A stretch of 54,970 bases of DNA, filler included, from an uncultured virus (IMG/VR IMGVR_UViG_2049941000_000201) (Duplodnaviria > Heunggongvirae > Uroviricota > Caudoviricetes). It is 8 parts of one record of this genome, joined end to end, with 100 filler letters (N's around TTAATTAATTAA, not from the genome) between each part and the next. Parts side by side here need not be neighbours in the genome. Positions count along the whole stretch, not along the records: positions 316 to 28,113 come from IMGVR_UViG_2049941000_000201; 7 more parts are not named here. One strand, written 5' to 3'. Within the stretch, counting starts at the first letter, position 1. Every line of letters starts with the position of its first letter. The notes under the pieces are model-generated. The model was given only the letters and a program-made list of their open reading frames with translations. It did not search any database and was not told the DNA's origin. Below, piece after piece: positions 11,308 to 54,320 of the stretch. The position numbers and the translations under genes were made by a program.

Positions 11308-11927
11308 ATGAGCGAGCTGATAACAGATTATTCTTCGGAACAGAGAAAGTACGTTCCCGAACAATACAAGCGGAGTACGAAGCTACTCGGCGTTATCGAC
11401 GCAACCCTTGGATTCTCGGACGAACTGGAAAAGGCGTTGCGCGAGATTTCCGACAACTTCAACATTGAAGATGCCGTCGGCCCGATGCTCGACTACTACG
11501 GCCTATATTTCGGAATCGTCCGAAAAATTGGCGAGACCGACGAACAGTTGAGAATGAGAATCCGCATAGGCAGCGGAACCGAAGACCTGCCGACACCAGA
11601 GGCCATCTATAACTATTTCAAGATTGCGTTCGGCATTTCGGACATGATTCTTTGTCCCGTATGGCCCGCGGGTCTTTATTTCGTTCTCGACCAGGGAATG
11701 CCCGAACCGGATGTAGACGAAGTAACAACCATAGCGGCGGCTTCCGGCGTTGATATTGGTCAAGGCACTTTCCTTTGTTGTGAAGAAGGGGAACCCTGGG
11801 GACTCATAGTTTTGGAGGACAACGGACAATCGCTAGTGATAGACCAGCGGTGGCCCGATACAGAGTACGCTATGGTAGACGATGAAGGATACTTGATTGT
11901 GGACGATGCGGACAACGTAGTGGTCGG
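11308..11927 (+). CDS. Baseplate wedge protein (DUF2612 / gpI-like), 3' end in gap
   Basis: Follows J. A.G.MLD.YG..GI.R and D..LR.RI motifs. Confidence 0.85.
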
Positions 11928-11937
11928 NNNNNNNNNN

Positions 11938-12280
11938 CTAGGCTCCGCAGATTCCAGCGAGCATTATCACGCAAGAAGAAACATTCCAAGAACATGGAGC
12001 GGTGCCGCAAATTGCTGGCTAGAATACACAGAAGGATTACCAATATCCGAATCAATGCGGCTCACCAGCTTACCGCTGACCTCACGAAACACACGAAGCC
12101 AAAGGCTATCGTCATCGAGGACTTGAAACCGAAGAATATGTGCAAGAACCACAAGCTGGCTTCCGCTATCCTTGATGCCAACTTCGGAAGGATGCGGCAG
12201 TTCCTGGAATACAAGTGTGCATGGCTAGGCATACTGCTGTTCTTCGCTCCGCAGTTCTATGCGAGCAGCCGTTATTGTTC
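11938..12280 (+). mobile_element. tnpB: IS200/IS605-family TnpB fragment
   Basis: LRRFQRALSRKKK.SKN, HQLT, IVIEDL..KNM.KNHKLA..I.DA.FG..R.FLEYK and F.ASSRYC (RuvC-II region and start of Zn finger). Flanked by gaps. Confidence 0.9.
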
Positions 12281-12516
12281 NNNNNNNNNNAACTTTCGGC
12301 TGGATCGTTTGCAAATCAAGCTCTGTCAAAACAGACGAAAAAAAGAAGAAAGTGCATGTCCCATGCTGGAGTAAGTGGTCTAACGATTGGTCGTTTATCG
12401 TCTTACCTGTCAAGAGCATCATATCTGTTGAAGAAACGACAGAACTAGCTCAAATTTAACAACAAAAAGATGATAAACAAATCAAATCAAATCCACACAA
12501 TCGACACAATATCAAC

Positions 12517-19527: not shown

Positions 19528-20456
19528 ATGCCTTACAACAGACAAATTCCTGATTCACCCATACCGGGCTCAATGTTGCCGCGAGCCAGTGAACTCACAT
19601 TGGCTGATTTGCTGCTGCTAATTCAACCCGGTAATCCAATCGGACAAAGAAACAAAAGTTTGACTTTGGAACAACTTTCAAACTTTTTAAAAAGTGTTTT
19701 TGAGGACAAACTGGCAGTTAAAGAATTGGACATTCTTGGAAATGAAGATTCCACCGCCCAAATTCCAAAAGNNNNNNNNNNNNNNNNNNNNNNNNNNNNN
19801 NNNNNNNNNNNNNNNNNNNNNNNNNNNNNNNNNNNNNNNNNNNNNNNNNNNNNNNNNNNNNNNNNNNNNNNNNNNNNNNNNNNNNNNNNNNNNNNNNNNN
19901 NNNNNNNNNNNNNNNNNNNNNNNNNNNNNNNNNNNNNNNNNNNNNNNNNNNNNNNNNNNNNNNNNNNNNNNNNNNNNNNNNNNNNNNNNNNNNNNNNNNN
20001 NNNNNNNNNNNNNNNNACTTTCCGCATATTACTATAGGAAAGTTGCACGCCACAGGTGCAGCAACATTTGAAAAAGATGTTACAATAGACGCCGATTTGA
20101 ATGTAGCAAAAACAGTCACATTCAAAGACTTTAAACCACAAATAAGTAATTTATTAAAAATTACGGACGTATCACAAACAAATTACACTTACGAACCGAC
20201 CGAACAAGACACGCAAGAAAAAGCGCTTTCAGTTCCGGCAAAAATTATAGTAAACGCCTCCGCAATAGAACATCGGTTGCTATTTGCGGGACCGCAAATA
20301 AGTCCGGGCGGTTATGTTTCCATGAATGTTGTGTTGCCCGTTGGTTATGCGGTTACACTAATTCCAGTTGATGCCCTTCAAGATATAGTTACTGGCACAT
20401 GGAAAACACTTTTTGCCGTAATTGGCGGAATGGATAAAAATTTATACACACCATAA
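19528..20456 (+). CDS. Tail-associated structural protein (gap-interrupted)
   Basis: Strong RBS, LPRASELT.ADLLL anchor-like N-terminus, beta-rich C-terminal part. Confidence 0.5.
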
Positions 20457-20470
20457 AAGGGAGGTTTATT

Positions 20471-20842
20471 GTGGATATAACTGGAATTGACATTGCCGCA
20501 ATCGTGACCGGGTTTGGAAGCCTTGGGGGCTGCATTGCCGCCGGAGTAAAGGCAATCAAAAGCGGAAACGAGGCACGGGCTGCAAAGGCGCAAACCGAAC
20601 TAATTCAGGAGCAGCGCAAGGCGCAAACCGAGCTTCGCGACGAACAAGTGCAGGAGCTAAAAACCGGGCTTGCAGTTGTTCAAGAACAAATTAAAACGCA
20701 CGCAACCCGCCTAAATGACGGGGACGAAAAATTTGAGGCGTTTGCAAACGAACTAAAAGAACAGAACGGGCTCCTCCGTGAAATTTTGGTTGCGCTTAAA
20801 ATAAAGTTTAATTTGCCCATTGGAAAGGAGCTTGGAAAATGA
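20471..20842 (+). CDS. Membrane-anchored coiled-coil protein (holin-like)
   Basis: N-terminal hydrophobic segment followed by a coiled coil. RBS GGGAGG with a GTG start. Confidence 0.55.
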   Translation: MDITGIDIAAIVTGFGSLGGCIAAGVKAIKSGNEARAAKAQTELIQEQRKAQTELRDEQVQELKTGLAVVQEQIKTHATRLNDGDEKFEAFANELKEQNGLLREILVALKIKFNLPIGKELGK

Positions 20843-20981
20843 TTGCTTTGGTACCACATTGAACTCTTTGTGCGCAATGCAGTTTATTTGCGTTTTACAT
20901 CAAGTAACGCAATCAGCAACATACAACGAATGGGCGCCGCTAGGAAATGCTACGGTAACCTGGTCGTAAAGGAGATAAAAC

Positions 20982-21413
20982 ATGGCAAGTACATTCGGTG
21001 AATTTAGCGTTGTTCATTACTTTGATGCTGAAAAGAATGATCTTATGTTTGTCCGCTTTTGGGTAAACAGTCATGAGGTTCTCATGCCTTTGTCCGAACT
21101 TGTGTACGGGCTGAAAGACGGCAAAGACATTGAAGTCGTAATACCCGAAGATACAAGCGAAGAAAACAAGCTCGTAAACATGAACGAAGTCCTTGAGGCT
21201 ATCGGACGTTTGCAGGAAGTGACAACGCTTGCGGTTGCCAACAGAAAGGAGGTTGAAGCTACAAGGAAGAAGGCGCTTGAAGAAAGCAAGAATAATTTGA
21301 ACTTGAAGGACAACGCCGAAATTGAAGGCGTTGAACCCGGTACGGATACCGAAGAAATTAAGGTTTCCGAAACAAAGAAATTAAACAAAGTACAGGAGGC
21401 AGAAAATGTCTAG
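20982..21413 (+). CDS. Short paralog of the N-terminal domain of the DGR target protein
   Basis: GEFSVVHY.D..FVRFWV and IPEDTSEENKLVN match GDLSIVHY.D..FIRAWV and IPEGTSEQNPLVN in 21406-22887. Confidence 0.75.
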   Translation: MASTFGEFSVVHYFDAEKNDLMFVRFWVNSHEVLMPLSELVYGLKDGKDIEVVIPEDTSEENKLVNMNEVLEAIGRLQEVTTLAVANRKEVEATRKKALEESKNNLNLKDNAEIEGVEPGTDTEEIKVSETKKLNKVQEAENV

Positions 21414-22887
21414 CAACAACGTATTGCCGCAGACCAGCGGAGACTTGAGCATCGTACACTATGCGGACGCTCAAGGAAACGAGAACTTTTTTATCCGTGC
21501 ATGGGTAAAAGGCAGCAAAGTGCTTATCCCGTTGAAGGAAGTGATGGACGATGTGAACTCGTCAATCGAAAATATCAAGAAACTTATCCCTGAAGGAACA
21601 AGCGAACAGAACCCGCTTGTAAACAACTTAAAACTCTACAAGGAGTTGCACCGCGTACCCAACGGCGGTACATTGCTTGCAGGTGCTAAAGTTGGCGACA
21701 TCCTTTGGGTGGACCCGGATAACGGCGACAAGTACTTCTTTGACAAAGACGTCTATCCTGTATCGCAGGCAGTCGCTGACGGGCTTGAATCCGTTGGCGT
21801 GGTGGCGGACGTTGACGGGCGAAAGCTTCTTATTCTCCACAAGGACGAATCCACCGATTTGATGTTCGTTAACTGCTGGTTGTTCAAGGTAACCGGCATC
21901 CATCTTGATGGCACGACCAACACGCTCAATATGCAGCAACACGCGTCTAACGCTTCCGCGGTTCCGGCAGGAACATTCACGGACAGCACTTCCACGACGC
22001 TTGCCGAGTTCTGTACGGCGCTTGATACGTGGCTCCGCGAGCACCAAACCGTGGCAGGGGCTTCCGTGACCAACTGGCACTGCGAACTGATGCCGGACGA
22101 TGGCGGTGTGGATTCTTGCTTCATCGTTGTCGATACGAACAGTTATCAGAATAGACTTACTCCTATTGCAAGCGGTTCAACGGCAACGGCTACACTTTAT
22201 ATGTGGCAATTTGCCGGACAAACGACTGACAGAACAACGATACTTCGAAACAACGGCTCCAGTGTCTATTATGCCGGGTTGAACAAGGAAAGACTTATCG
22301 AATGGTTCAGCGACCCGTCCAACGTATCCGTCTCGCCGACAAACGACCCGAATGGAGAAGGACTGCTCAACTTGTCGGACTTCAACGGCACAAGCTATCC
22401 TGCCGTGAAGGAATACTACGGCGACTACGAGACCTACATGGAGGCTATGATGATGAAGTGGCCGAGCGAAACTGGGTCACAGGCTGCATTTGCCGGAACG
22501 GGTAAAAACATCGGGCTTGTCCTCGGAACTCATACTCACAAGAACCTCGCTGGAGAATCGGTCTACACGTTCCCTGCTAACAGATTCTCTTATACGAGAG
22601 CCACGGAAGCTACACGAAATAGCGATGACCTGGGCGATGGTTGTTGGTACTTGCCGGACGTTGTAGACTCGTTTAAGGTGTTTTCAAAGATGAAAGTTGA
22701 CGGTACGGACGCGATAAACGATAGTTTGTCTGCAATTTCATCGCGCCGCGCGTTGGGTGTGTCGCGCTGGTGTTGCTCGCGTTCTACCAGCAATGGCAGT
22801 TGGTTGATGCGCCTTAGGGGCCATTTCAACGCCGACGCCTTCACCAGTAGGTATAGGAGCTGCGCGGTTGCGCTCTTGGAATATTGA
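21406..22887 (+). CDS. Putative DGR target protein (CLec-like C-terminus, receptor-binding/adhesin)
   Basis: WYLP motif and terminal RW.CSR...SW....GHF....F....RS.AVALL. Followed by a hairpin and an avd-like gene. Confidence 0.8.
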   Translation: MSSNNVLPQTSGDLSIVHYADAQGNENFFIRAWVKGSKVLIPLKEVMDDVNSSIENIKKLIPEGTSEQNPLVNNLKLYKELHRVPNGGTLLAGAKVGDILWVDPDNGDKYFFDKDVYPVSQAVADGLESVGVVADVDGRKLLILHKDESTDLMFVNCWLFKVTGIHLDGTTNTLNMQQHASNASAVPAGTFTDSTSTTLAEFCTALDTWLREHQTVAGASVTNWHCELMPDDGGVDSCFIVVDTNSYQNRLTPIASGSTATATLYMWQFAGQTTDRTTILRNNGSSVYYAGLNKERLIEWFSDPSNVSVSPTNDPNGEGLLNLSDFNGTSYPAVKEYYGDYETYMEAMMMKWPSETGSQAAFAGTGKNIGLVLGTHTHKNLAGESVYTFPANRFSYTRATEATRNSDDLGDGCWYLPDVVDSFKVFSKMKVDGTDAINDSLSAISSRRALGVSRWCCSRSTSNGSWLMRLRGHFNADAFTSRYRSCAVALLEY

Positions 22888-22901
22888 TTATTAACTTATT
22901 T

Positions 22902-22921
22902 GCAATCCCTTACGGGATTGC
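22902..22921. promoter_or_regulatory. DGR target-recognition hairpin/cruciform
   Basis: Perfect 8-bp stem GCAATCCC/GGGATTGC with a 4-nt loop TTAC, 14 nt after the target stop. Confidence 0.75.
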
Positions 22922-22931
22922 GGAGCTTAAT

Positions 22932-23135
22932 ATGAACAAGGACTACAAGGCAAAGCTTCTAGAAAAAGCTGGAATTTATGTAGACTGTTGCCAGCTTCTC
23001 AAGTGCGTGTACAAGTTGCTTTTTTCAATGCCGAAGAAAGACAGGGTTATTATCGGTGACAAGATTATAGAATACAACTTGTCCATGATAGCCCACTTTT
23101 CTAAAGGGTTTCAGTTCAAGGAATGTAGGCATTGA
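22932..23135 (+). pseudogene. avd: Truncated Avd-like four-helix-bundle accessory protein
   Basis: IY.D..QLLK.VYKL.FSMPKKDRVIIGDKI is an Avd-like N-terminal half. Stops after 67 aa. Confidence 0.7.
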
Positions 23136-23296
23136 ACAAAAACGAAGGATGTGGCTATTTGTCGAAAAGGCTTTGTCCGAGTTCAAAAATGTATTATATT
23201 GGAATAGTGAGAAAAATTCTTTTTCGACAAAGGAACCAAAGCACTCATGACATCGAAATTATAACTACCATTATCGCATACATCGGAGAACTTATT

Positions 23297-23581
23297 ATGT
23301 CCAATTCCAACGAAAAAGAAAACGAAAAATGGAGAAAATTCCTCCAGCCAATCATCACCGGCCTTGTAGCCATGATGACCGCTGTTGTGGGCTACTTGCA
23401 GTATTTGCAGAAGCAGGAGAGCGACAGGCGCGATTCCCGCATTGCCGTTCTCGAAGTGCAGGTAGGCGAGCAGTCCAAGCGCAGCGACAAGTTCGATGTC
23501 GATATAGACAACTTCAAGACACTGCTCTCGGACATACGTTCGGACGTGTCATTTATCCGAGGGAAGATGGAGAAGCGCTGA
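23297..23581 (+). CDS. Holin-like membrane protein
   Basis: One TM segment plus coiled coil ending SFIRGKME. RBS GGAG. Confidence 0.55.
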   Translation: MSNSNEKENEKWRKFLQPIITGLVAMMTAVVGYLQYLQKQESDRRDSRIAVLEVQVGEQSKRSDKFDVDIDNFKTLLSDIRSDVSFIRGKMEKR

Positions 23582-23709
23582 TGTGGATTATTACGTTGCT
23601 AATGGTGCTAGGTTCGCTAAACGCGGAGTTTACCGATGATAAAGAAAGCATTGATAACGGCAAACGTGATTAACTTGGTCACGTTCGTTTACTTTATCTT
23701 GGAGAATTT

Positions 23710-24225
23710 ATGAATAGAACAAAATGCACCGTCAAAAGCGTAAAGGCTTCGCCGTTCATTACAACCGCCGGGCGCCCCTTTGTATTTTTGGGCGCCGCCC
23801 GCATTTTGCTAGAACTTGTTCGAACATATACGGACGGCACAACTGAAAAAGCGTTGCTTACCATTAAAATTCGTCCGGGCTACAAAACGGACGGGGCAAG
23901 CACATTTTTCCCGATTTCGTTGCTTGTACCGCAATGGGTTCCGGGTGACGACAATTACAACGCCGCCCCGGTTGCTCACGATGTGTTGTACATGCTCGGC
24001 GGTATAGTCGATGGTGTACACGAGCCCGTGAAGTTAAGCCGCGAAGAAGTGGATGACATTTTGCGCGGTGTCTGGCGTTGCTGGGGAATGTCCCGCTTTG
24101 TTGCAGCGTGCGCAGACAAGGGAGTTGAGGTTTTCGCGGGCGGAAAAGATCACTGGAAAAATGACAGTTATGGCGTGCGCCAATTTGTCGAAGTAAAATG
24201 GGAGGCTGCTTCATGCTTACTCTAG
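23710..24225 (+). CDS. DUF1353-like phage protein
   Basis: PGYKTDGAS, A..AHD.LY and SREEVDDIL motifs. Confidence 0.75.
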   Translation: MNRTKCTVKSVKASPFITTAGRPFVFLGAARILLELVRTYTDGTTEKALLTIKIRPGYKTDGASTFFPISLLVPQWVPGDDNYNAAPVAHDVLYMLGGIVDGVHEPVKLSREEVDDILRGVWRCWGMSRFVAACADKGVEVFAGGKDHWKNDSYGVRQFVEVKWEAASCLL

Positions 24226-24605
24226 TCCGCTACACTCGAACAGAAACGGCTGTTCTAGGCTCTCTTTACATGAATGGTGCTTTTGTCTGCTACACTCTAG
24301 AAAACGCAGACAAGGCGATTCCGTGCGGGATGTACACGGTGCAGAACTCGAAAAGCCCGAAGTTCAAGCGGGAATTGCCGTTGCTATTTAGCTCGAACGT
24401 TCCGCAATCACGCGGTATAAGGATACACCGCGGAAACACGGCTAAGGACTCGCAGGGGTGCGTCCTTGTTGGCATGGGGCGAAGTACAGAGAAATCCTCG
24501 GTGACTGAATCCACAAACGCCGAGGTCATGGTAACGATGCTGTGCCGTAACGAAACGAATCTTGTCATTGTCGATAACTACAAGCATGGAATTACGGATA
24601 AATGA
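24213..24605 (+). CDS. DUF5675-family protein (candidate lysis peptidase)
   Basis: CYTLE, IP.G.Y, SPKF and GIRIH.GNT..DSQGCVLVG motifs. Confidence 0.85.
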   Translation: MLTLVRYTRTETAVLGSLYMNGAFVCYTLENADKAIPCGMYTVQNSKSPKFKRELPLLFSSNVPQSRGIRIHRGNTAKDSQGCVLVGMGRSTEKSSVTESTNAEVMVTMLCRNETNLVIVDNYKHGITDK

Positions 24606-24985
24606 TATTCACGATTCCTTACGACACGCCGAGCAAGAAGAACAGCCGCATAGTAAACAGAAGGACTGGCCGTAGCTTTCCAAGCAAGGCTTACAGCGAT
24701 TGGCATGTAAGGGCTTCTCTTTGGATAAGGACGCATTACTCGATCAATGCTTTGGGCAACGGGCCGTTTTCGGTCATCATGGCTTTCAATCACGGCACGT
24801 TGCGCAGGTGCGACAGTGACAACAAGGCAAGCTCCATTCTGGACTTGCTTGTCGATTTGGGCGTGATAGAGGACGATAGCTGGCAGGTAGTCCGCAGCCT
24901 TAGCGTAACGAACTATTACGAGAAGGCTATGCCTAGCGTAACGGTGAAGATTTTCCCATATACGGAAGAATTTATAAGCAAGTAG
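24602..24985 (+). CDS. rusA: RusA-family Holliday junction resolvase
   Basis: PSKKNS, RRCD.DNK.SS.LD.L and G...DDS motifs. Confidence 0.85.
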   Translation: MIFTIPYDTPSKKNSRIVNRRTGRSFPSKAYSDWHVRASLWIRTHYSINALGNGPFSVIMAFNHGTLRRCDSDNKASSILDLLVDLGVIEDDSWQVVRSLSVTNYYEKAMPSVTVKIFPYTEEFISK

Positions 24986-25011
24986 AAACCCGTAGTCGGG
25001 GAGACTACAAA

Positions 25012-25046
25012 AAAAGGCCCTCGGTGGGAAACCATCGGGGGCTTTT
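25012..25046. terminator. Bidirectional terminator between convergent operons
   Basis: AAAAGGCCCTCGGTGG-GAAA-CCATCGGGGGCTTTT. Confidence 0.75.
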
Positions 25047-25052
25047 GCGTAC

Positions 25053-25137
25053 AAAAAAAAGAACGCTCGACAACTTAGGATTGTCAAGCGTCAATTAACA
25101 AGAGGGTTCAAACAATATAGTCATTGCTGATGATTGA
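25053..25137 (-). ncRNA. Candidate ~85-nt small RNA
   Basis: Own promoter TTGACA-17-TACATT (25172-25144) and own terminator (stem 25063-25091 plus U8). No ORF with an RBS. Confidence 0.55.
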
Positions 25138-25216
25138 TAAATCAATGTAGCAACGAAACCTTTATTTGTCAAGCGTGCATTTCTCGTCCTGGAAAACGAA
25201 AGAAGGTCCTCGTGAA

Positions 25217-27708
25217 TTATCGCTGGCAATGCCTTTGAATCTCGGACAAGTCCTCTCTAGTGACAATTCGTTTCTCCTTCAATAATTCTTCTCGTGTCAT
25301 TATTTGGCGACCCTTTTTCGAGGCGTTGTGAATAGCAGCAATGCATCTACAGCAAAAGTGACAAGGCGCGCCACCCCATAATACAAATCTAGCTTCGTTC
25401 CTTTTTATTTTATCCTGGCATCCTGAACAGATGATAATACGATTTTTGTATTGTCCCCATACATGATTATTAGTTTTCATTTCCATAAATTACTTGCTCA
25501 GATTTATTCCTTTTAAAAATTCTTCAAACTTGTCGTAGTCGCAATATTCATCGTCATAGCACATTTCTGGATCGTCCTTGAACGGGCATTTCGAACAGGT
25601 TTCTTTTCCAGAAATCGCACCGTAGAAATTGCACATCCCGCACCAGATTTTCGTGATGTATTCTTGTTTTGAATCTTTAATTTAAATCCTAAAATTCCTT
25701 CTCTTGGTGGTTCGTAATGTAGCGCTTTTAGTATTCTTCTTTTTCTTGCGTTCAGTTTATTTGGGTGTTTTTTGTAGAATCTTAAACTAAATCGTTGTTT
25801 GTTCTTTACAGCGTACCTCGCTTCGTAGGCTATAATTTCTTTTAGTTCTCTTTTTATATTGTTCATTCACTCCTCCAGCTTCCTGCCGCACATCGGGCAT
25901 AACTTGATTTTGAAAGCTCCAGACATACGGGAACCGTCCGAGTTGTCAAATGTTATTGTGTTGTCTTCAAGGTAAATTGAAGCGGTCTCGTAATCGCTTT
26001 CGCAATTAAATAAATCGGGCCCATGTCCGTCAAAGTCGTGGCAGTACGGGCATTTATTCTGTTTTATCGTCTCGTCGTTTTGCTCCGCTTTCTTGACGCG
26101 GATGTACATTTGGAGCTGTGGCATTAGTGATTCGTAGGATATTGGACCGACAATCGTAGATTGATAAAACAAATTTTCAAGCCATTCTAACGAGTACGGC
26201 TCTATTTTCTTTCCGGTTTCTTCCTGTATTTCCGGGTAGCTGTTCTCGTCGTCCGTGACAATCACGAACGGACTGCCTTCGAGAATGATACGGAAATATG
26301 TAAGGTCGCCGTCTTTCCATTTTTTGTACAGGCGTTTGATATACCCGAATTTCAAACCATTTTTTTTGAGTTGCTGTTTGAAATCGTCCTCCGTGACGCA
26401 CATAGGCCCGATCAAAAATTTTTTCATATTAAACTCCTATCTTCCTACGCATTGGGTAGATTGAATTTTCTGTAAGGCGTCATTGTACGCTTTCTTTGCT
26501 TCTTCTGGATTTATATACCGTCTGTTCATTTATGCGTACCACTTATCTTCGCTGTCGTAACGTTCCACAAGTGCGCCAAACCCTAGTTCATTGAGCAGGT
26601 CGCACAATACCTGGTCCGCTTTCATGTGATATAGCTCGCAATCATCCTTTTCGGCTTCTTCAAGCCTATCGAGATACTTTCTTTCGAGCCTATTCTTATC
26701 TTCTTCGATGATGTCGATTTTACGGTTCATGGTAACTGCATTGTTCGCAATCGTAGCGTTCGTTTTCTGCAAGTCCGCTATTATTGCGTCCTTTTCGTCC
26801 ACATACTGCTTGCGCATGACGAGCGTGCTTTGCGGGTATTTGGCGTAAGCATCGCCAAGCGTCTCAAATTTGTCTTTTTCTGCCATAATATTACCTTCTT
26901 TACTTTTCCCCTTTATCCGCGGACGTTCCCCATTCGCCGGAGTAGATGCCGTACATGTTCATGCAATGCGGGGCGTTTGTCTCGCCTGCGTAACGTTCCG
27001 TAAGGACGCGGACTTGAAGCCTGCTGGGGCGTGTATAGGTTCTGTGGATTCTGTACCACGTTTCGCGGCAAATGTTGACTAGTTCCGCATGGTCGTTCTC
27101 TATGTCGATCGTTACGGCTTGCGGCCCCGCATTATCCGTCCTTGCCGTGTCCGCTGTCTGTTGTTGATCCTGCTTTAATTGGCTTGCGAGAGCGTTTGTA
27201 AAGAATTGTGCGTTTGCGAATGTGGCGAGCAATGCCACGGTCATGATTAATTTGGTTTTCATTGAATTTTCTCCTTTATTTTTTGCAGTTCTTTGAAAGG
27301 AATAATCTTTTCCAGGTCTTGGCAGGCATGCCAAGGGTTAATCCAGCGGTTAATCATGAGGACAAGTTGTACATCGCTCGGGCATTCGTTCTGGTGATCC
27401 ATGCGATGAGGAGCTACAATTGCATACAGCTTCTTTGCTTTTTCTAGACGCTGTTTATCATATTCTGTTAGCGCCATTGTTTACCGTTCCTTCTTGAAAA
27501 ATAGTTTTCCTTCTGGAGTTATCCATAATGACGGCCTGTTTCCGTCCGCCAGTTCGTTGGCGTTTTCGTGGCACAGCTTGAGCCATTGAATCGTATTCTT
27601 TGCGACTACTTTCGCCTTCTTGTCCTTTGCCATGCCTTCGGATTGCTCAATAAGCATGCGAATTGCGGCCCTGTAGCCTTCCATGAAGGCGATGTTTATG
27701 CGTTGCAA
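25217..27708 (-). CDS. Cluster of small leftward hypothetical early genes (25217-25486, 25513-25866, 25867-26427, 26530-26886, 26900-27262, 27259-27477, 27481-27708)
   Basis: Tightly packed co-oriented ORFs. Several carry CxxC motifs, and 26900-27262 has a signal peptide. Confidence 0.65.
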
Positions 27709-28238
27709 ATCTTCACCTCCGTTATTTTTTCCCTAAATCCGTTTGCGCAGCATTCGCACAACGGAACGAACCCGCGCATCCATCGCATGCGATACTCCTT
27801 GCACTTGCGTTCACGTCTGCACCACCAGCAATTCATGCGTCATTCCCCAGTGTGGATAATGACCGGCTTTACATCGCCTTCTATGGNNNNNNNNNNCTTT
27901 CGTTCACGTCTGCACCACCAGCAATTCATGCGTCATTCTCCCGTGTGGATAATGACCGGCTTTACATCGCCTTCTATGGCTAGAATAGCGTCAAGTAGTG
28001 CATCTTCCAGGTCAAGATCAACGGCGCATTCTTTAGCGTTTGATGGCCTGCAAGCCGCCTTGGCGTAATCGTACACGCCTACAGCCAAACGAGCGCCATC
28101 CGGCAAAGTATAGNNNNNNNNNNNNNNNNNNNNNNNNNNNNNNNNNNNNNNNNNNNNTTAATTAATTAANNNNNNNNNNNNNNNNNNNNNNNNNNNNNNN
28201 NNNNNNNNNNNNNTGCAAAAAAAATTTCAAAAAACTGC

Positions 28239-29459
28239 CTAAAATAGCGACATTTGCCCGTTTTCGTCGCATTTTTGCGCGATTTCGAGCGTTTTTTTTG
28301 CGTTTTTGGGCGATTCTGTAGGCGCAACCGCAGGCGCCTCTTTAGGCTCGATTCCTGGCGATCCTGGAGCCTTCGGAACGGTGGCACTTTGTGGATATTT
28401 GCCTTGTCCTATGCGCCGCTTGAAGTGGGGCCATGCAATCAGGTAGGCGGGCGTGAACCACGCCTCGCGATACTCCATCGCTAGAGCGTCGCCGAGCCTC
28501 ACGACTGCAGGAACGCCGAGAAGCGATAGCGTGAGGTATGTCATGTGTACGCACCTTGAGTCAATGTCGCCGCAGTCAACAAATACGTTCCACGCGTAAT
28601 TTACGCCGTACCCGTTGAGAACATCTATGCTCGCGACGATAAGGCCACCTGCACCGCATGTAGGCTCGTAAAGCGTAAGAACNNNNNNNNNNTCTTGAAG
28701 TGGGGCCATGCTATTAGGTACGCTGGCGTGAACCACGCCTCGCGATAATCCATCGCTAGAGCGTCGCCAAGCCTGACTACAGCAGGAACGCCGAGAAGCG
28801 ATAGCGTGAGGTAGGTCATGTGTACGCACCTTGAGTCTATGTCGCCGCAGTCCACAAATACGTTCCACGCGTAATTTACGCCGTACCCGTTGAGCACGTC
28901 GATGCTTGCGACGATAAGGCCACCTGCACCGCATGTAGGCTCGTAAAGCGTAAGAACGTGGTCCGGGTCGTTCTCGAAGCGTCCAAGCACTTCGTCCTTA
29001 TCCAGCGTGCATTCGCTCATTAGATGGCTTACGTGNNNNNNNNNNCCCCAGCACTTCGTCCTTATTCAGCGTGCATTCGCTCATTAGATGGCTTACGTGG
29101 TACGGAGTGAAGAACTGCCCCGCCTTGCCGTTGCTTGTGCCGGAGTCCATGTAGATTTCTCCGGCAAAGTCGCGGAACTCGCCAGATCCGTTCTTTGCTG
29201 CCTCTATCTCGCCAATGAACAGGCCGAGGCATGACGCGAACGTTTCGAGCTGGTCCTTGGAGTACTGCTTCGCCACGTTCATGTACCGCTTTTCGAACTC
29301 ATCGCGCTTCGTGAAGTCGAACGTGTTGCGAACAGAAATCGCTGAAAGCTCGAAGAAGTCGCGGACAACGGAATAGTAGTCGCGGTCACGTATCGTCTGC
29401 AACATGCGCGGAATTTCTCGCCGTGCCTCCGTAACGGATGGCGGTCGTTTGTTTGCCAT
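28239..29459 (-). CDS. N6-adenine methyltransferase-like protein (overlapping variant fragments; another copy at 29969-30307)
   Basis: GQFFTP and YEPTCGAGG SAM-binding motifs, GDID, GDAL. Confidence 0.8.
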
Positions 29460-30834
29460 GCCTACACCCTCACCATTTTGCAGCGTCCCATTCGTGTCGT
29501 TCCCTGTACCACCCTTCCGGGAGTGTAGGCAGTATGCGCTTCGCTAGCTCGTAATCTTCCTTCGTGAGCGTCCGGCGGTCCTTCGGCCCCATGTAGTAGT
29601 AGTCTAGTCCGAGGTGCACGGCCTCGCAAATCTTGAAAGTGCGTTTATCCATTTTTGATTTCCTCCTTTATCTTGTCTGCGTTTTCGGCCATGTAGTCGG
29701 CAATCTTGCCGTAGGCCGTTGTCCATGTCTCTTCCTTGAATCCGCGCCACGTTGTACGCATCGGGTAGGCCCTGATGAAGGTNNNNNNNNNNCGCGGATA
29801 GCGTCAAGTAGCGCATCTTCCAAGTCAAGATCAACGGCGCATTTTCTATCAATCGAAGGCCTGCAAGCCGCCTTGTCGTAATCGTACACGCCTACAGCCA
29901 AACGAGCNNNNNNNNNNNNNNNNNNNNNNNNNNNNNNNNNNNNNNNNNNNNNNNNNNNNNNNNNNNNNGGCCTTGCCGTTGCTTGTACCGGAGTCCATGT
30001 ACAGCTCTCCGGCGAAGTCGCGGAACTCGCCGGATCCGTTCTTTGCCGCCTCAATCTCACCCATGAACAGTCCGAGGCATGACGCGAACGTTTCGAGCTG
30101 GTCCCTGGAGTATTGCTTCGCAACGTTCATGTACCGCTTTTCGAACTCATCGCGCTTCGTGAAGTCGAACGTGTTGCGTACAGAAATGGCTGAAAGCTCG
30201 AAGAAGTCGCGGACAACGGAATAGTAGTCTCGGTCACGTATAGTCTGCAACATGCGCGGAATCTCTCGCCGTGCCTCTGTAACGGATGGTGGTTGTTTGT
30301 TTGCCATGCCTATACCCTCACCATTTTGCGGCATCCCATTCGTGTCGTTCCCTGTACCACCCTTCCTGGAGTGTAGGCAGTATGCGCTTCGCCAGCTCGT
30401 AATCATCCTTTGTGAGCGTCCGGCGGTCGTTTTTCGCCATGTAGTAGTAATCGAGTCCGAGGTGTACGGCCTCGCAAATCTTGAACGTGCGTTTATCCAT
30501 AATTTTAAAACTCCTTAAATTCTCCAGTTATGGTACTGGCTTTATATTTCTTTTTACACTTTGTACATTCAAACAAAGCGTAACCGAAAACTATTTGCAT
30601 TAACGGTGATTTGTCAATCAAATCAAGATCACCGCCANNNNNNNNNNNNNNNNNNNNNNNNNNNNNNNNNNNNNNNNNNNNTTAATTAATTAANNNNNNN
30701 NNNNNNNNNNNNNNNNNNNNNNNNNNNNNNNNNNNNNTCCCTCCGGCGGCGGTACGGTATGTTTACGGGACCGATGAACAAGTTTGTGTGATTAGTGTTG
30801 TGTTCATGTGTCATGCCTCCATCGGGATAATCTC

Positions 30835-31266
30835 TTATGCGTTGTACTTCTCCGCTTCCTCTCGCGTTCGGAAGAAGTGGAACCCGCTCGCGCATTCAAC
30901 GTTGTACATGTGGTTGAACTCCTCGATTTCGATGTCCTGCATGAGCCGGTACTCGAAATTGTTGTCGTATGAGCTGTGCAATACTTCGTTCTGTCCCCCC
31001 ATGTCGATTATGCGTGCCTTGTTCGCACGGCACTTGCTTCCGTTGATGCAAAACACGATTGCTCCGGCAGGAATCGTGGCGGTAATCACTACGCCCTCTT
31101 TCGTTTTCTTGTAGACAGTTATCGGCTCTTTTAGAATTTGTCCGAGACGGAACTTTTCTTTTTCTTCGAGATTTGCTCCGTAGAGATTTGCGCCTGTGAG
31201 ATTTGCGTTTTTGAGATTTGCTCCGTAGAGATTTGCTCCGTAGAGATTTGCGTTTTTGAGATATGC
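30835..31266 (-). CDS. Pentapeptide-repeat protein with DUF5758-like C-terminal domain (5' truncated)
   Basis: ANLYG/ANLKN repeats at 31170-31266; KCRANKA and ECASGFHFF motifs. Confidence 0.85.
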   Translation of the reverse strand, partial: AYLKNANLYGANLYGANLKNANLTGANLYGANLEEKEKFRLGQILKEPITVYKKTKEGVVITATIPAGAIVFCINGSKCRANKARIIDMGGQNEVLHSSYDNNFEYRLMQDIEIEEFNHMYNVECASGFHFFRTREEAEKYNA

Positions 31267-31833
31267 NNNNNNNNNNNNNNNNNNNNNNNNNNNNNNNNNN
31301 NNNNNNNNNNTTAATTAATTAANNNNNNNNNNNNNNNNNNNNNNNNNNNNNNNNNNNNNNNNNNNNCGTAACGCTGGCTCACGCCTTGCGCGAAGTTACG
31401 TAGCAGGTTGATTTCTTCGTTCATGGGGGCGAGGTTGTTCAGGATGAACTGCGAGAGAATCCGTTCCCANNNNNNNNNNGAATTTGTCATTTTCTGCCAT
31501 AATATTACCTTCTTTACTTTTCCACATTATCCGCGGACGTTCCCCATTCGCCGGAGTAGATGCCGTACATGTTCATNNNNNNNNNNTTGTCGTAAACCCG
31601 CCGTTTCCCACGATGCTCTTCACGTTTCCGAGGAACTCCTTACGTTCGAGGCTGGAGAGCCGCCTGATTTTCGCCTTTCGGTTCTCCTCGTCAATTGCGG
31701 CTTGCGGACGCTGTTCCGGCTTCGGTTCTTCTAGCTCGTCCTTGTGGGCTTCGAGTTCAGCCCAGATGGCGTCAAGCCTCGCCATTTCCTCCGCTGTCTT
31801 TACTTTCGCCAGTGCCATCGTTGATTAGTTCCT

Positions 31834-33144: not shown

Positions 33145-33389
33145 NNNNNNNNNNAATGATGTCGTCAGCAGGGATGCGTATGCCCATTATGATGTAAGAC
33201 TGTACAAGAAGCCTTGAGACAATCTCGATTCGGGCCTCTTTGAACGCTTTTTCTTTCGGCTGTACCTGTCCAGACACGCCGCCATTCGANNNNNNNNNNN
33301 NNNNNNNNNNNNNNNNNNNNNNNNNNNNNNNNNTTAATTAATTAANNNNNNNNNNNNNNNNNNNNNNNNNNNNNNNNNNNNNNNNNNNN

Positions 33390-33536: not shown

Positions 33537-33542
33537 TCGTTC

Positions 33543-34034
33543 ATGGCTACAGACCTTCTAAAGTGCTTCAGGACTTTTCGCGACGATCCGCGGAAAGTCT
33601 CTTTTTCATTGTCTTGCGGCAAGGATTCCGCCGTAATGCTCGACTTGGCATCGAAGTTCCTGGACCTGTCGAAGCACAGGTTCTTTTACATGAGCTTCTA
33701 TCATGAGGTGCTTCCGTACAAAAGAAAGTATCTTTGCGCTCTCGAACGTAAGTACGGCATCACAATCGACATTCACGAAAACCCCGTAAGGTACGGGCTC
33801 AAGCAGTCCGAGCTGTTCCGCAAGATCATGGAGCAGGACGGTACGCAGCTAATCGGCATCGGTTACAAGATTTACGACTCGCTCCAGCGCAGAGCAATTC
33901 TGAAGGGTTCAGAGGAAAACGGCATCGCCATTAATTTCCCGTTCTTCGCTCCGCTTAGGGACTGGAAGAACAGGCAGGTCATGGCTTACGCCAAATCACA
34001 CAGGCTCGCACTGTCGCCAGAATACTCTTTCGAT
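33543..34034 (+). CDS. PAPS-reductase-family (PP-loop) protein
   Basis: SLSCGKDS PP-loop, G.K..DS..RR and PL.DW....V..Y motifs. Confidence 0.85.
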
Positions 34035-34045
34035 NNNNNNNNNNC

Positions 34046-34630
34046 ATGCTGCCAGTTTCCGAGGTTCGACCCTACGAAAAGAACCCGCGAAAAAACGCCG
34101 AGGCGGTAAAATATGTCAAGGCGTCCATCGAAAAATTCGGATTCAAGCAGCCTATCATCGTAGATTCCAACCGCGTCATTATTGCCGGTCATACACGACT
34201 GGAAGCGGCGAAGTCTCTCGGCATGGCGGAAGTCCCCTGCATCGTGGCCGACGATCTCACCGACGCCCAGGCGAAGGCGCTGCGTCTCGCGGACAACAAG
34301 GTCGCCGAGTTTTCCGAGTGGGATATGAACCTGCTCGGCGGCGAGCTGGGCGAGCTTGCTGAGATTTCCGACATCGACATGGGAGATTTCGGTTTCGAGG
34401 ATGACGGCATCAGCGCCGACGACTTCGGCGACGAATTCAGTCTCCCCGATGGCGAGAAAAGCAACATTACCCAATGGACGCTCACTTTTGCTGAAGAGCA
34501 GAAGGCCTTTATCGAAAATGCCCTGAAGGAAGTGGGCGAGCCGGAGGAAACTTTCGGGAACGTGAACGAAAGCGGGAACAAGATTTACGAGGTGGTGCGT
34601 CAATGGGTCGAGCAAAAGAAATCGAACTGA
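34046..34630 (+). CDS. ParB/Srx N-terminal domain protein (true N-terminus seen in variant 37781-37935)
   Basis: PYEKNPRKN, SI.KFGF.QPIIVD, IIAGHTRLEAA and LRLADNK motifs. Confidence 0.93.
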   Translation: MLPVSEVRPYEKNPRKNAEAVKYVKASIEKFGFKQPIIVDSNRVIIAGHTRLEAAKSLGMAEVPCIVADDLTDAQAKALRLADNKVAEFSEWDMNLLGGELGELAEISDIDMGDFGFEDDGISADDFGDEFSLPDGEKSNITQWTLTFAEEQKAFIENALKEVGEPEETFGNVNESGNKIYEVVRQWVEQKKSN

Positions 34631-35313
34631 AGGTCATCCCGTCCTCGATAGCGAACCCGTTTATCAAGGCGCACCATTATTCGGGCAAGGTAGTGAACAA
34701 CTCCTGCCTGCATTTCGGCGCGTTCCTGGATGGCGGCCTGCACGGCGTTATGAGCTACGGACCGAGCCTCGACAAGCGGAAAATCATGGGCCTCGTCGAA
34801 GGCACCGGCTGGAACGAGTTTCTGGAATTAAACCGCATGGCTTTTGACGAATACCTCCCGCGCAATAGCGAGAGCCGCTGCATCGGTCAAAGCATCCGGC
34901 TTATCAAGAAAAGGGCTCCGCAGATCAAGTGGATAATTTCATTTGCGGACGGCTGCTCCTGCGGCGACGGCACGATTTACCGCGCCTCTAATTTCGTTTT
35001 GACCGACATCAAGGAAAACAGCGAGCTCTGCGAATTGCCGAACGGCGAGAAGGTGCACTGCATGACCTTGAAGTCGAACCCCCTTACTCCCAGGAAGGAT
35101 CTGGGGGGGGGTACGTTCTTCTCGGTGACCGGCGGGACGTACAATTTCAAGAAATACGTGGAAAAAGCGGGCGGGAAAATCCTCACGGGCTATCAAATGA
35201 GGTATATTTACTTCATCGACCCGGCCTACAAGTCCAGACTAAAAGTTCCTATTATTCCGTTCTCTCGAATAAATGAAATCGGGGCAGGTATGTACAAGGG
35301 TGAAAAACGATAA
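34603..35313 (+). CDS. mom: Mom-family GNAT DNA-modification enzyme
   Basis: HHYSGK, ELNRM, NSESRCI, IISFAD and GTIY.ASNF motifs typical of Mom-like proteins. Confidence 0.8.
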   Translation: MGRAKEIELKVIPSSIANPFIKAHHYSGKVVNNSCLHFGAFLDGGLHGVMSYGPSLDKRKIMGLVEGTGWNEFLELNRMAFDEYLPRNSESRCIGQSIRLIKKRAPQIKWIISFADGCSCGDGTIYRASNFVLTDIKENSELCELPNGEKVHCMTLKSNPLTPRKDLGGGTFFSVTGGTYNFKKYVEKAGGKILTGYQMRYIYFIDPAYKSRLKVPIIPFSRINEIGAGMYKGEKR

Positions 35314-35421: not shown

Positions 35422-36421
35422 ATGGCTAAAGCAAAATACGACGGCAGAAAAAACCTCATACCGGTGCACGACCACGAAACGGCGGTCATGCTCGGCAAGC
35501 GCAGTGCCGAAGCCAGAAGGGAAAAGAAGAACCAGAAGGCGATGCTCCTGGAGGACATCAAGAATACCGTCACCGAGCGCATCAAGGTTCCCGAACCGCT
35601 ATACCAGNNNNNNNNNNNNNNNNNNNNNNNNNNNNNNNNNNNNNNNNNNNNNNNNNNNNNNNNNNNNNNNNNNNNNNNNNNNNNNNNNNNNNNNNNNNNN
35701 NNNNNNNNNNNNNNNNNNNNNNNNNNNNNNNNNNNNNNNNNNNNNNNNNNNNNNNNNNNNNNNNNNNNNNNNNNNNNNNNNNNNNNNNNCCGTCGTTGAC
35801 GAATTTTCGTGGGGGTGGGGGGCGTTTTTAGACGATTTCCAAAAGGACATCCCGTTCGAGGAAATCTCAAAGACGCTTTATGCCGTTGGTATGGGCTCGG
35901 TGCCTTCCTGGGTGCGGCCTTTTCACGTTCTTTCAAATGGCGAGAAAATGCGCGTCACCTTGGCGCGTGGCTTGCTAGAAAGAGACTTCTTTATTTTCGA
36001 CGAGTTTACGTCCGTTGTGGATCGTCAAGTCGCCAAAGTCTAAATGCCCATNNNNNNNNNNACGCTCAAGGGCCTCGGCATCAAGATAACCCGCCTCGAA
36101 AGGGTTGACAAGCTCATCTTCTACCGCGCCCTCCTGAAGGCGCTCAAGGACGGCGAGCCCGACCGCCTGCTCAAGATCGCGGAGTTTGCGGGCATGAAGT
36201 TCCGCGACGATGACGATGGCTCCGCAACATCAATGACGCCGGACACAGAAATGATGCTGTCCACGATCTTTGCACAGGGTCGCAAGGTCGAACCGAAGCA
36301 GCCTAAATCGAATGCGGTCGATAAAGCGGACGGCGGAAGTTCCGCAAGCAATGAATCGGCAAATGACGATGGCGCTGTTCATTCGGAGCCTGCCATAACC
36401 GTTTTTTCCGGGCTGGGGTAA
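35422..36421 (+). CDS. Putative terminase small subunit (fragments 35422-35607 and 36062-36421; variant 36945-37130)
   Basis: NLIP..E.A...G.RS..ARR N-terminus. The C-terminal piece directly precedes terL. Confidence 0.65.
35790..36043 (+). CDS. Phage ABC-type ATPase fragment (displaced; likely partner of the GNAT at 37141-37563)
   Basis: VPSW.RPF.VLSNGEK.R..LAR signature and FDEFTSVVDR Walker B. Confidence 0.85.
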
Positions 36422-36424
36422 ACG

Positions 36425-36933: not shown

Positions 36934-37140
36934 NNNNNNNNNNCAACTGAAGGGCCTCGGCATCAAGATAACCCGCCTCGAAAGGGTCGACAAGCTCATC
37001 TTCTACCGCGCCCTCCTGAAGGCGCTCAAGGACGGCGAGCCCGACCGTCTTTTGAAGATTGCGGAATTTGCCGGCATGAAGTTCACGGAAGAAGAGACGA
37101 ACGCTTCCGCAATGACGCCGGACACAGAAANNNNNNNNNN

Positions 37141-40523: not shown

Positions 40524-40556
40524 GATGGATAAATTTTTAACAAAGGAAAAACAACC

Positions 40557-46078: not shown

Positions 46079-46096
46079 TTTAAGGAGAATTTAAAA

Positions 46097-47394: not shown

Positions 47395-47429
47395 AACAAA
47401 GGGCTATTATCTAAACAGGAGATAATATT

Positions 47430-54317: not shown

Positions 54318-54320
54318 AAC

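What the first reader, a model, noticed from the sequence alone, without database searches (positions are those of the whole stretch)
21406..23250. Frozen DGR: intact target, VR and hairpin, but avd fused to a possible RT tail with TR and RT core deleted
Seen: the target ends in a VR-like stretch (about 22760-22880) rich in NNC/NNT codons such as TCT ACC AGC AAT GGC and AAC GCC GAC GCC, as expected from AAY mutagenesis. It is followed by GC-rich GCGCGGTTGCGCTC, an 8-bp/4-nt hairpin and an Avd-like ORF that stops at 67 aa. At that point, with no N gap, another frame reads IEQKRRMWLFVEKALSEFKNVLYWNSEKNSFSTKEPKHS-stop (23131-23250), which resembles the tail of gut-phage DGR RTs. I find no TR or RT core in the window. 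Inference: a deletion locked this receptor variant, although it could still be diversified in trans by relatives with a full DGR.
Basis: partly seen in the sequence, partly recalled or inferred. Interest (0 to 1): 0.72.

Follow-up and report, generated by a model that had tools for sequence, protein, structure and literature searches.

The report
Phage DGR disabled by a deletion
A gut phage has lost the engine of its tail-protein diversifier through a 1.46 kb deletion, which fixes one receptor-binding variant, and related phages have lost the same engine many separate times.

Summary

- **Intact parts.** The target gene (21406-22887) ends in a variable repeat (VR, 22742-22872). An 8-bp/4-nt hairpin follows at 22902-22921.
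- **Remnant.** The first 66 codons of avd (22932-23130) join at 23130|23131, out of frame and without microhomology, to the last 39 codons of a 378-aa reverse transcriptase (RT, 23131-23250).
- **Intact relatives.** L028, L030, L031, L036 and L027 carry target-VR-hairpin-avd(155 aa)-TR-RT. 67 of 68 differences between the template repeat (TR) and the VR lie at TR adenines.
- **Window VR against those TRs.** 20-21 of 23-24 core differences lie at adenines (Fisher p about 1e-9).
- **No TR or RT core in the window.** About 1.46 kb is missing.
- **Junction is real.** An independently built contig from the likely source sample spans it. Contigs from two other studies run on into intact avd and RT exactly there.

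- The hairpin loop (TTAC) is the reverse complement of the relatives' GTAA, so diversification in trans is doubtful.
- Relatives show more than 20 different deletion junctions. Their left ends are spread over avd. About half of their right ends fall in RT codons 336-354.

This is a broken member of a known kind, with an interesting population pattern.

The parts
21406..22887 (+). DGR target gene (493 aa plus stop). It is the last gene of the tail-fibre/baseplate block and is presumably a receptor-binding protein.
   Evidence: ORF. It is 80-90% identical to the target genes of relatives. The upstream context is baseplate and tail genes. No Pfam or PHROGs family matched. The fold is inconclusive.
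22742..22872 (+). Variable repeat (VR), 131 nt, now without a cognate TR.
   Evidence: Aligns to the TRs of L027, L028, L030 and L031 at 76-77% identity. In the 105-nt core, 20-21 of 23-24 differences are at TR adenines, Fisher p 1e-9 to 4.5e-9.
22859..22875 (+). GC-rich 3' end of the VR (IMH-like), where TR and VR homology ends.
   Evidence: Identical in the window and in all close relatives. The TR/VR alignments of intact relatives end here.
22902..22921 (+). Hairpin/cruciform with an 8-bp stem and a 4-nt loop. The loop TTAC is inverted relative to the relatives' GTAA.
   Evidence: Run X3 shows no other letter at 22910 and 22913. Role of the structure and loop in BPP-1: PMC3240598.
22932..23130 (+). 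avd remnant: codons 1-66 plus one base. The ORF runs on to a stop at 23133-23135.
   Evidence: 66 of 66 identical to P0005, P0014 and P0015. Full-length Avd of relatives is 155 aa. It has sub-threshold hits to bAvd PF22296 and to NF033474.
23130..23131 (+). Deletion junction. It is blunt, with no microhomology, and shifts the frame by +1. About 1.46 kb is missing: avd codons 67-155, the TR, the spacer and RT codons 1-339.
   Evidence: 1458 nt relative to L030. Loose ends lie at 23130 and 23131 in X5 and X6, and X3 record 6 spans 22856-23236 with 0 differences.
23131..23250 (+). RT remnant: the last 39 codons plus the stop of a 378-aa DGR reverse transcriptase.
   Evidence: 37 of 39 identical to P0004 residues 340-378, E 9e-18. 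P0004 matches PF00078 at E 2.7e-12.
23173..23200 (+). Promoter-like site inside the RT tail, just to the right of the cluster of deletion end points. This is a hint only.
   Evidence: Sigma-70-type match in 9 of 12 positions. The scan found 4 sites against 1.5 +/- 1.4 in shuffles. It was not tested further.
23299..23581 (+). Downstream gene (93 aa, one hydrophobic stretch plus charged helix). It is context and marks the right limit of the former cassette.
   Evidence: Homologous DNA follows the RT in L031 and L038.

Best explanation
This is the remnant of a phage diversity-generating retroelement (DGR). In the intact form, seen in close relatives, the order is target gene with a 3' VR, hairpin, avd (155 aa), TR, RT (378 aa). 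Avd and RT copy TR RNA into cDNA that is mutated at adenines, and that cDNA replaces the VR. This varies the C-terminal binding surface of a tail protein.

In the window one blunt deletion of about 1.46 kb removed avd codons 67-155, the TR, the spacer and RT codons 1-339. Nothing left in the window can make cDNA, so the VR now encodes one fixed variant.

Shown:
- the anatomy;
- the homology of both flanks;
- the adenine-specific pattern;
- the junction in independently built contigs;
- the existence of intact alleles and of many other deletion alleles.

Inferred:
- the target is a receptor-binding protein;
- the VR is no longer diversified;
- why the cassette is lost so often.
For: Window anatomy and flanks
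- avd part 66 of 66 identical and RT tail 37 of 39 identical to full-length proteins.
- The breakpoints map to L027 coordinates 5644 and 7108. The missing piece is 1458 nt relative to L030.
- No TR or RT elsewhere in the window.
- Window VR against relatives' TRs: 20-21 of 23-24 core differences at adenines.

Intact relatives
- 5 of the 17 metagenome loci found with the target protein have the full architecture.
- Their TR/VR mismatches at TR adenines are 19 of 19 (L027), 18 of 18 (L028, identical in L036), 15 of 16 (L030) and 15 of 15 (L031).
- RT and avd ORFs are open in L028, L030, L031 and L036.
- More distant cassettes, L006 and L026, have the same order and AAY-rich TRs.

Contigs laid on the window
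- X3, the likely source sample in Logan's own assembly, spans 22856-23236 with 0 differences at depth about 66.
- X5 and X6, from other studies, continue at 23130 into the avd sequence.
- X6 enters 23131 from the RT sequence.

Avd identity
- 11 of 20 full-length homologues hit bAvd PF22296 at E 2e-9 to 9e-3.
- L028 Avd hits NF033474 at E 8.5e-5.
Against: - The window has 71 N runs. A TR and RT hidden in a gap of unknown size cannot be excluded, although the locus itself is gap-free.
- The avd remnant alone matches no Pfam, PHROGs or NCBIfam model.
- Full-length Avd hits stay below the curated cut-offs (best 38.2 against 40 bits; 22.8 against 80 bits).
- A profile of Avd homologues found no solved Avd structure.
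- The C-type lectin fold of the target could not be confirmed. Models have pLDDT 69 and 55, Foldseek gave nothing at E <= 0.001, and the best VIA Z is 6.8.
- 9-10 non-adenine differences separate the window VR from each relative's TR over the full 131 nt (3 of them in the core). Their origin could not be settled because the window's own TR is gone.
- 'Frozen' is a deduction. Only contigs were available, not raw reads, so VR heterogeneity in the source sample was not measured. One low-depth contig (3.2 against about 55) shows a different VR there.
Confidence: 0.92

Rival explanations
1. The VR is still diversified in trans. A co-infecting relative, a second DGR in the same genome, or a host DGR would supply Avd, RT and TR RNA. 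These would home into this VR through its retained GC-rich end and hairpin.
For: - The VR 3' end and the hairpin stem are identical to those of intact relatives.
- Related phages co-occur in the source sample, seen as a variant VR contig and an alternative downstream gene in X3.
- Retrohoming in BPP-1 was assayed with a separate donor construct (figure legend text of PMC3240598 seen).
Against: - The loop is TTAC on the sense strand instead of GTAA. In BPP-1, replacing the loop GAAA by CTTT cut homing to near background (PMC3240598).
- No contig in X3 shows an intact allele at 23130, but contigs drop rare variants.
- The window VR differs from known TRs at non-adenine sites in its 5' part, which would lower homology.
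Confidence: 0.1
2. The junction is an assembly artefact, and the real phage carries an intact cassette.
For: - The window is a heavily gapped scaffold.
- DGR loci are hard to assemble because of the TR/VR repeat.
Against: - Logan's separate assembly of another run of the same sample spans the junction without a difference at depth about 66.
- The junction has no repeat that could mislead an assembler.
- Other deletion junctions recur in contigs of different samples: L001 and L002; L038 and L040; X5 and X7.
Confidence: 0.02
3. On cause: the many deletions are not selected 'locking' of a good receptor variant. They are recurrent mutational accidents at a fragile site, followed by further erosion of the dead remnant. 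Each allele would be rare and short-lived.
For: - Among 15 protein clusters with this Avd N-terminus, 4 are full-length (155 member sequences) and 11 are fused or truncated (39 member sequences). That means many different alleles, each with few members.
- Several junctions are nested and could be secondary. X7's 22967->23170 encloses the window's junction.
- Junction microhomology is 0-13 nt, as in illegitimate recombination.
- L027 shows another kind of damage, a stop at avd codon 32.
Against: - In the source sample the deletion allele is the main form, at depth about 66 with no intact contig.
- 9 of 14 metagenome loci that can be judged are deleted, though intact loci assemble less well.
- No deletion confined to the TR was seen among these alleles. 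Within the RT the only one seen is P0006, an RT that lacks 24 internal residues. That is odd for random damage.
Confidence: 0.5

Closest known systems
Bordetella phage BPP-1 DGR (mtd-VR, hairpin/cruciform, avd, TR, brt)
   Same: - Same gene order in the intact relatives.
- VR at the 3' end of a tail gene.
- GC-rich VR end followed by an 8-bp/4-nt hairpin.
- A small Avd-type accessory protein.
- TR-to-VR differences only at adenines.
- Hairpin requirements in BPP-1 were read in PMC3240598.
   Different: - The window lacks the TR, the RT core and the C-terminal 89 codons of avd.
- The hairpin loop is not GRNA. It is GTAA in relatives and TTAC here.
- Avd is 155 aa and matches Avd models only below their cut-offs.
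- The target has no recognisable family, and its lectin fold is unconfirmed.
Gut-phage DGRs (Hankyphage, Quimbyvirus, crAss-like and Faecalibacterium phage DGRs)
   Same: These are also tail-associated targets in phages of gut communities, judged by adenine-specific VR variation. This was read as passages in PMC6199706, PMC8008677 and PMC11792537.
   Different: - Those papers discuss frameshifted RT ORFs or temporarily inactive DGRs.
- In the passages returned by my term searches none describes a cassette deleted from avd into the RT tail, or a series of such alleles.
- None of these papers was read in full.
Small inversions of hairpin loops (flip/flop of a palindrome with an asymmetric loop)
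   Same: The stem is unchanged and the 4-nt loop is exactly reverse-complemented between the window and its relatives.
   Different: This resemblance is recalled from general knowledge and comes from no call. The mechanism was not tested here.

Membership tests
Diversity-generating retroelement (functional cassette) | A reverse transcriptase gene of the DGR type in the locus | tested here: not met
   Only the last 39 codons remain. No RT family match among the 82 long ORFs of the window. In relatives the 378-aa RT is present and matches PF00078 at E 2.7e-12.
Diversity-generating retroelement (functional cassette) | A TR/VR pair that differs almost only at TR adenines | tested here: not met
   No TR in the window. 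The feature is met in relatives: 67 of 68 mismatches at adenines over L027, L028, L030 and L031.
Diversity-generating retroelement (remnant or derivative) | VR at the 3' end of the target gene carrying adenine-site substitutions relative to the family's TR | tested here: met
   20-21 of 23-24 core differences are at TR adenines, Fisher p about 1e-9 against four relatives' TRs.
Diversity-generating retroelement (remnant or derivative) | Hairpin/cruciform downstream of the VR with a 7-10 bp GC-rich stem and a 4-nt GRNA loop (PMC3240598) | tested here: inconclusive
   An 8-bp stem and 4-nt loop are present, z = -5.0. The loop is TTAC here and GTAA in relatives, and neither fits GRNA. Other lineages have different GC-rich hairpins at the same place.
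Avd (bAvd PF22296 / NF033474 DivGenRetAVD) | Match to the family model at its curated cut-off | tested here: not met
   The 67-aa remnant has no hit. Among full-length homologues 11 of 20 hit PF22296 at E 2e-9 to 9e-3, best 38.2 bits against a cut-off of 40. L028 Avd scores 22.8 bits against a cut-off of 80 for NF033474. A profile search against PDB sequences found no Avd. Position between VR and TR in intact cassettes supports the role.
DGR variable proteins with a C-type lectin fold | The VR lies in a C-type lectin-like domain | tested here: inconclusive
   The models are weak over the VR: pLDDT below 50 at residues 447-486, and mean pLDDT 55 for the C-terminal domain alone. Foldseek found no match at E <= 0.001. 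VIA-align gave a Bacteroides fimbrial protein 4eps_A at Z 6.8. Lectin-like chains scored only Z 3.0-4.5: Lcl C-terminal domain, invasin, CLEC12A and struthiocalcin.

The most novel reading that the evidence does not exclude
In this clade of ruminant-gut phages the diversifying module is shed again and again. More than 20 different junctions run from anywhere in avd, or further upstream, into a stretch of about 55 nt in the RT's 3' tail. That stretch lies just upstream of a promoter-like site. Natural populations would thus keep switching from an evolvable to a locked receptor-binding protein. The bias of the end points would reflect one of two things:
- selection to keep the downstream gene expressed while removing avd, TR and RT together; or
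- a mechanism tied to the element itself, such as template switching of the RT on its own transcript followed by recombination of the cDNA.

The inverted hairpin loop in the window would then be a second, independent way of closing the target to homing.
Probability: 0.3. Interest if true: 0.75.

Novelty: new member of a known kind. Interest (0 to 1): 0.52.

Why it matters
DGRs are usually catalogued as present and active, or not detected. This locus, with its relatives, gives a natural series of intact and deleted alleles of one element with base-exact junctions.

The series lets one ask three questions:
- What does carrying a targeted hypermutator cost a phage?
- Does loss go with a particular receptor variant?
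- Which cis elements decay once the engine is gone?

It is also a practical warning for DGR surveys that start from the RT. Targets such as this one carry a clear hypermutation footprint, but such surveys will miss them.

Tried and rejected
**Searches that found nothing**
- Whole-genome searches were not possible, because no genome is held for this window.
- Megablast of 20017-27886 against the phage collection found no match.
- tblastn of the two remnants against that collection found no match for the 67-aa ORF and only a chance hit for the tail at E = 3.
- An exact DNA pattern from the tail found only the two IMG/VR contigs already known.
- Earlier findings of this scan: none for this place.

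**Structure and profile tests that did not settle anything**
- The full-length target model has pLDDT 69 and the C-terminal domain model 55.
- Foldseek against PDB gave nothing at E <= 0.001, and VIA-align gave only Z <= 6.8. The lectin fold therefore stays open.
- An Avd profile against PDB sequences gave only chance hits to ribosomal protein eS17 at E about 0.5.

**'Frozen VR' test by comparison**
- I compared alleles that share a junction. L001 and L002 have identical VRs (125 of 125), but their flanks are identical too (400 of 400).
- The intact pair L028 and L036 is also identical throughout. The test therefore has no power.

**Read mapping**
- All runs were available only as Logan contigs. 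VR heterogeneity and rare intact alleles in the source sample could not be measured.

**Ideas considered and rejected**
- Site-specific or programmed excision is rejected. The junctions differ, have no common motif and carry 0-13 nt of microhomology.
- An ancestral state without a DGR is rejected. Partial avd and partial RT at both sides cannot be ancestral.

**Literature**
- Three full-text searches and term look-ups in five papers returned no passage on cassette deletions of this kind.
- This is not proof that none is in print. The supplements of these papers were not opened.
Full report
**1. What is in the window**

The window is a heavily gapped scaffold with 71 runs of N. It is a tailed-phage genome. 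Its ORFs include portal, MuF, major capsid, sheath-like DUF3383, tape measure, Dit-like, baseplate J and others. The stretch 20017-27886 has no N.

Within that stretch lie the following features.
- ORF 21406-22887 (493 aa) is the last gene of the tail and baseplate block.
- GCGCGGTTGCGCTC sits at 22862-22875.
- The stop codon is at 22885-22887.
- A hairpin GCAATCCC-TTAC-GGGATTGC lies at 22902-22921. As single-stranded DNA it folds with z = -5.0, and 0 of 200 shuffles fold as well.
- An ATG ORF of 67 aa runs from 22932 to 23135.
- In the +1 frame an open stretch ends ...IEQKRRMWLFVEKALSEFKNVLYWNSEKNSFSTKEPKHS-stop at 23250.

**2. Identity of the two remnants**

Neither piece matches Pfam, PHROGs or NCBIfam on its own. 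Neither matches the phage collection by tblastn.

A word-seeded search with the 52-aa open frame 23092-23247 against longer proteins gave 12 hits.
- P0004 and P0008 are 378-aa proteins with PF00078. They end in the window's tail, which is 37 of 39 identical to P0004 residues 340-378.
- P0004 matches RVT_1 at E 2.7e-12.

An exhaustive phmmer search with the 67-aa ORF gave 44 hits at E <= 0.001.
- The closest longer proteins (P0014, P0015, and P0005) are identical to the window over residues 1-66.
- Full-length relatives are about 125-156 aa.
- 11 of 20 scanned hit the bAvd model PF22296 at E 2e-9 to 9e-3, all below the 40-bit cut-off.
- The 155-aa protein of L028 hits NF033474 (DGR protein Avd) at E 8.5e-5, which is 22.8 bits against a cut-off of 80.

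So the ORF is the N-terminal 66 codons of an Avd-type gene. That call rests on homology and position, with only sub-threshold support from the family models.

**3. Intact relatives and the adenine test**

The target protein found 3 loci in IMG/VR and 17 in metagenome contigs.

Five of the 17 carry target, VR, hairpin, avd, TR and a 378-aa RT: L027, L028, L030, L031 and L036.
- avd and RT are open in four of them. L027 has a stop at avd codon 32.
- Their TR/VR pairs are 131-133 nt long.
- Mismatches at TR adenines are 19 of 19, 18 of 18 (L028, identical in L036), 15 of 16 and 15 of 15.
- These are therefore true DGRs.

More distant cassettes found with the RT have the same order and AAY-rich TRs. 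L006 has 74% RT identity, and L026 is another.

The window's VR (22742-22872) aligns to these TRs at 76-77% identity.
- In the 105-nt core, 20-21 of 23-24 differences are at TR adenines, Fisher p 1e-9 to 4.5e-9.
- The non-adenine differences lie mostly in the 5' 26 nt, where the TRs of different lineages also differ from each other.
- Two of the core non-adenine differences are partly shared with the VRs of L034 and L043. They probably come from the window's own lost TR. That is inference.

**4. The deletion**

Against L027, the window matches up to position 5644 (in avd) and again from 7108 (in the RT tail). Against L030 the missing piece is 1458 nt.

The joint lies between 23130 and 23131 and shares no bases between the two sides. 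It shifts the frame by +1, so avd ends after codon 67 at a TGA. The RT tail is not read in frame with it.

The lost piece holds avd codons 67-155, the TR, the spacer and RT codons 1-339. Nowhere else in the window is there an RT or a TR.

**5. Is the junction real?**

All public runs were served as Logan contigs, not raw reads.
- In X3, another run of the likely source sample, a 381-nt contig at depth about 66 covers 22856-23236 with no difference. No listed loose end lies at 23130.
- In X5 and X6, from other studies, contigs match up to 23130 and then run on into the sequence that follows codon 66 in intact avd.
- In X6 a contig enters 23131 from the sequence that precedes codon 340 in the intact RT.

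The window's junction is thus exactly where intact alleles continue. Misassembly is very unlikely.

VR heterogeneity could not be measured from contigs. One low-depth contig in X3 (3.2 against about 55) has another VR and may belong to a co-occurring relative.

**6. The hairpin is not quite intact**

The stem is identical to that of the relatives. The loop is TTAC in the window, and also in X3 and in the X7 contig.

All 11 distinct relatives' contigs with a complete hairpin have GTAA, which is the exact reverse complement of TTAC. L034 is cut within the loop.

Passages of PMC3240598 report the following.
- In BPP-1 the stem sequence can vary.
- Changing the loop GAAA to CTTT, or enlarging it, drops homing to near background.

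If the same holds here, which is inference, this VR is a poor target even for a cassette supplied in trans. Other lineages have different GC-rich hairpins at the same place. That supports a conserved structural role.

**7. Many other deletion alleles**

Distinct junctions seen in DNA, given as avd codon to RT codon:
- L001 = L029 and L002 = L032: 5 to 363, with 2 nt shared.
- L033: about 95 to 277, with a 13-nt shared stretch.
- L038 and L040: 85 to 352, with 4 nt shared.
- L037: about 17 to the tail of an L028-type RT, with 11 nt shared.
- L041: 26 to the last RT codons.
- L034: from the hairpin loop to beyond the RT stop.
- L043: from the last target codons to the next gene.
- A contig of X7, and probably X5: 12 to 353.
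- A weaker joint in X5, with only 28 nt on the shorter side.

Of the 17 metagenome loci, 5 are intact in architecture and 9 are deleted. In 3 the contig ends too early to judge.

Further junctions appear only as predicted proteins and were not checked at DNA level.
- P0005: 122 to 344.
- P0011: 101 to 349.
- P0012: 86 to 353.
- P0002: 46 to 313.
- P0001: 43 to 315.
- P0063: 42 to 336.
- P0016, P0020 and P0062: out of frame.
- P0014: complex.
- P0007 and P0009: the left end lies in the upstream gene or in the target itself.
- P0017: an avd of another lineage joined to an RT-tail-like end (E 2e-6).

Every distinct junction needs its own event, but nested ones could be later erosion of an older deletion. 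Some pairs each keep sequence that the other lacks, so neither can derive from the other.
- Among alleles with the L027-type tail, P0005, the window and P0002 are mutually independent in this sense.
- L037 and L041, which both carry the L028-type tail, are independent of each other in the same sense.
- That gives at least five independent losses.

About half of all right ends (12 of 23) fall in RT codons 336-354, and none falls in codons 1-276. Left ends are spread over avd.

Ascertainment matters here. The protein-only alleles were found with tail or avd-start queries, and intact loci assemble less well than deleted ones. Even so, the DNA loci found through the target gene show the same right-end bias (277, 340, 352, 353, 363, two in the last RT codons of L028-type tails, and two beyond the stop).

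Among 15 protein clusters with this avd start, 4 are full-length (155 member sequences) and 11 are fused or truncated (39 member sequences). Intact forms still dominate. The deletions are many, and each has few members.

**8. Why the tail is kept**

A sigma-70-type promoter-like match lies at 23173-23200, immediately to the right of the end-point cluster. It matches 9 of 12 positions, and the scan as a whole is barely above shuffles.

From memory, this stretch also resembles the Bacteroidetes promoter pattern (TTTG, about 19 nt, TAnnTTTG). That comes from no call.

In the L002-type relatives the RT stop overlaps the ATG of the next gene. The window keeps only a 5-codon remnant of that gene's start, and its own next gene begins at 23299. 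A need to keep the downstream gene expressed could explain the right limit. This is a hypothesis only.

**9. Comparison and verdict**

The locus works like nothing any more. It is a DGR that lost its engine.

It descends from a canonical phage DGR of the BPP-1 layout. The defining features of a functional DGR (RT, TR) were tested and are not met in the window. They are met in close relatives.

I found no description of such avd-to-RT-tail deletions, or of a series of them, in three full-text searches and five papers consulted by term look-up. Supplements were not opened.

The finding itself is a new member of a known kind in a decayed state. The recurrent, patterned loss and the inverted loop are the parts worth following up.

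Noticed in passing
window 22910-22913: The hairpin loop TTAC is the exact reverse complement of GTAA. GTAA is found in 11 of 11 distinct relatives' contigs with a complete hairpin. This looks like a flip of the loop within an unchanged stem. The X7 deletion allele also has TTAC.
   Followed up: partly
L027:5451-5920: The otherwise complete cassette of L027 has a stop at avd codon 32. Its VR still differs from its TR at 19 adenines. This may be another route of inactivation, or a sequencing error.
   Followed up: no
window 20982-21413 and 21406-21640: The 143-aa ORF just upstream shares its N-terminal roughly 70 residues with the target, so the two have a paralogous attachment domain. P0009 is a hybrid of the two N-termini joined to the RT tail.
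   Followed up: no
window 23248-23298: After the RT stop the window keeps a 5-codon remnant of the start of the gene that follows the RT in L002 and L027. A different small gene then starts at 23299. The downstream gene therefore differs between lineages, and L031 and L038 share the window's arrangement.
   Followed up: partly
window 11886-12371: An ORF fragment matches OrfB_IS605 and the Cas12f1-like TNB domain (TnpB-type). It lies inside the baseplate and tail-fibre block, next to a 10-N gap.
   Followed up: no
window 33537-35310: A DNA-modification cluster is present: a PAPS-reductase-like protein, a ParB_N protein and a Mom-family protein (E 2.6e-49).
   Followed up: no
window 216-315, 28114-28213, 30638-30737, 31267-31366, 33290-33389, 38711-38810, 53330-53429: Seven blocks have the same pattern, 44 N + 12 bases + 44 N. 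They produced spurious 100-nt 'repeats' in the repeat finder. They are probably masked or scaffold-joining blocks. The 12 bases between the N runs were not examined.
   Followed up: no
window 28000-30300, 36000-41600, 45500-48100, 52500-54400: Many direct repeats of 100-300 nt at 88-99% identity lie close to gaps (families D2-D19). They may be duplicated assembly fragments or allelic contigs placed in tandem.
   Followed up: no
window 31165-31269: A 15-nt tandem unit (GAGATTTGC plus 6 variable bases) repeats at least 5 times and runs into a gap.
   Followed up: no
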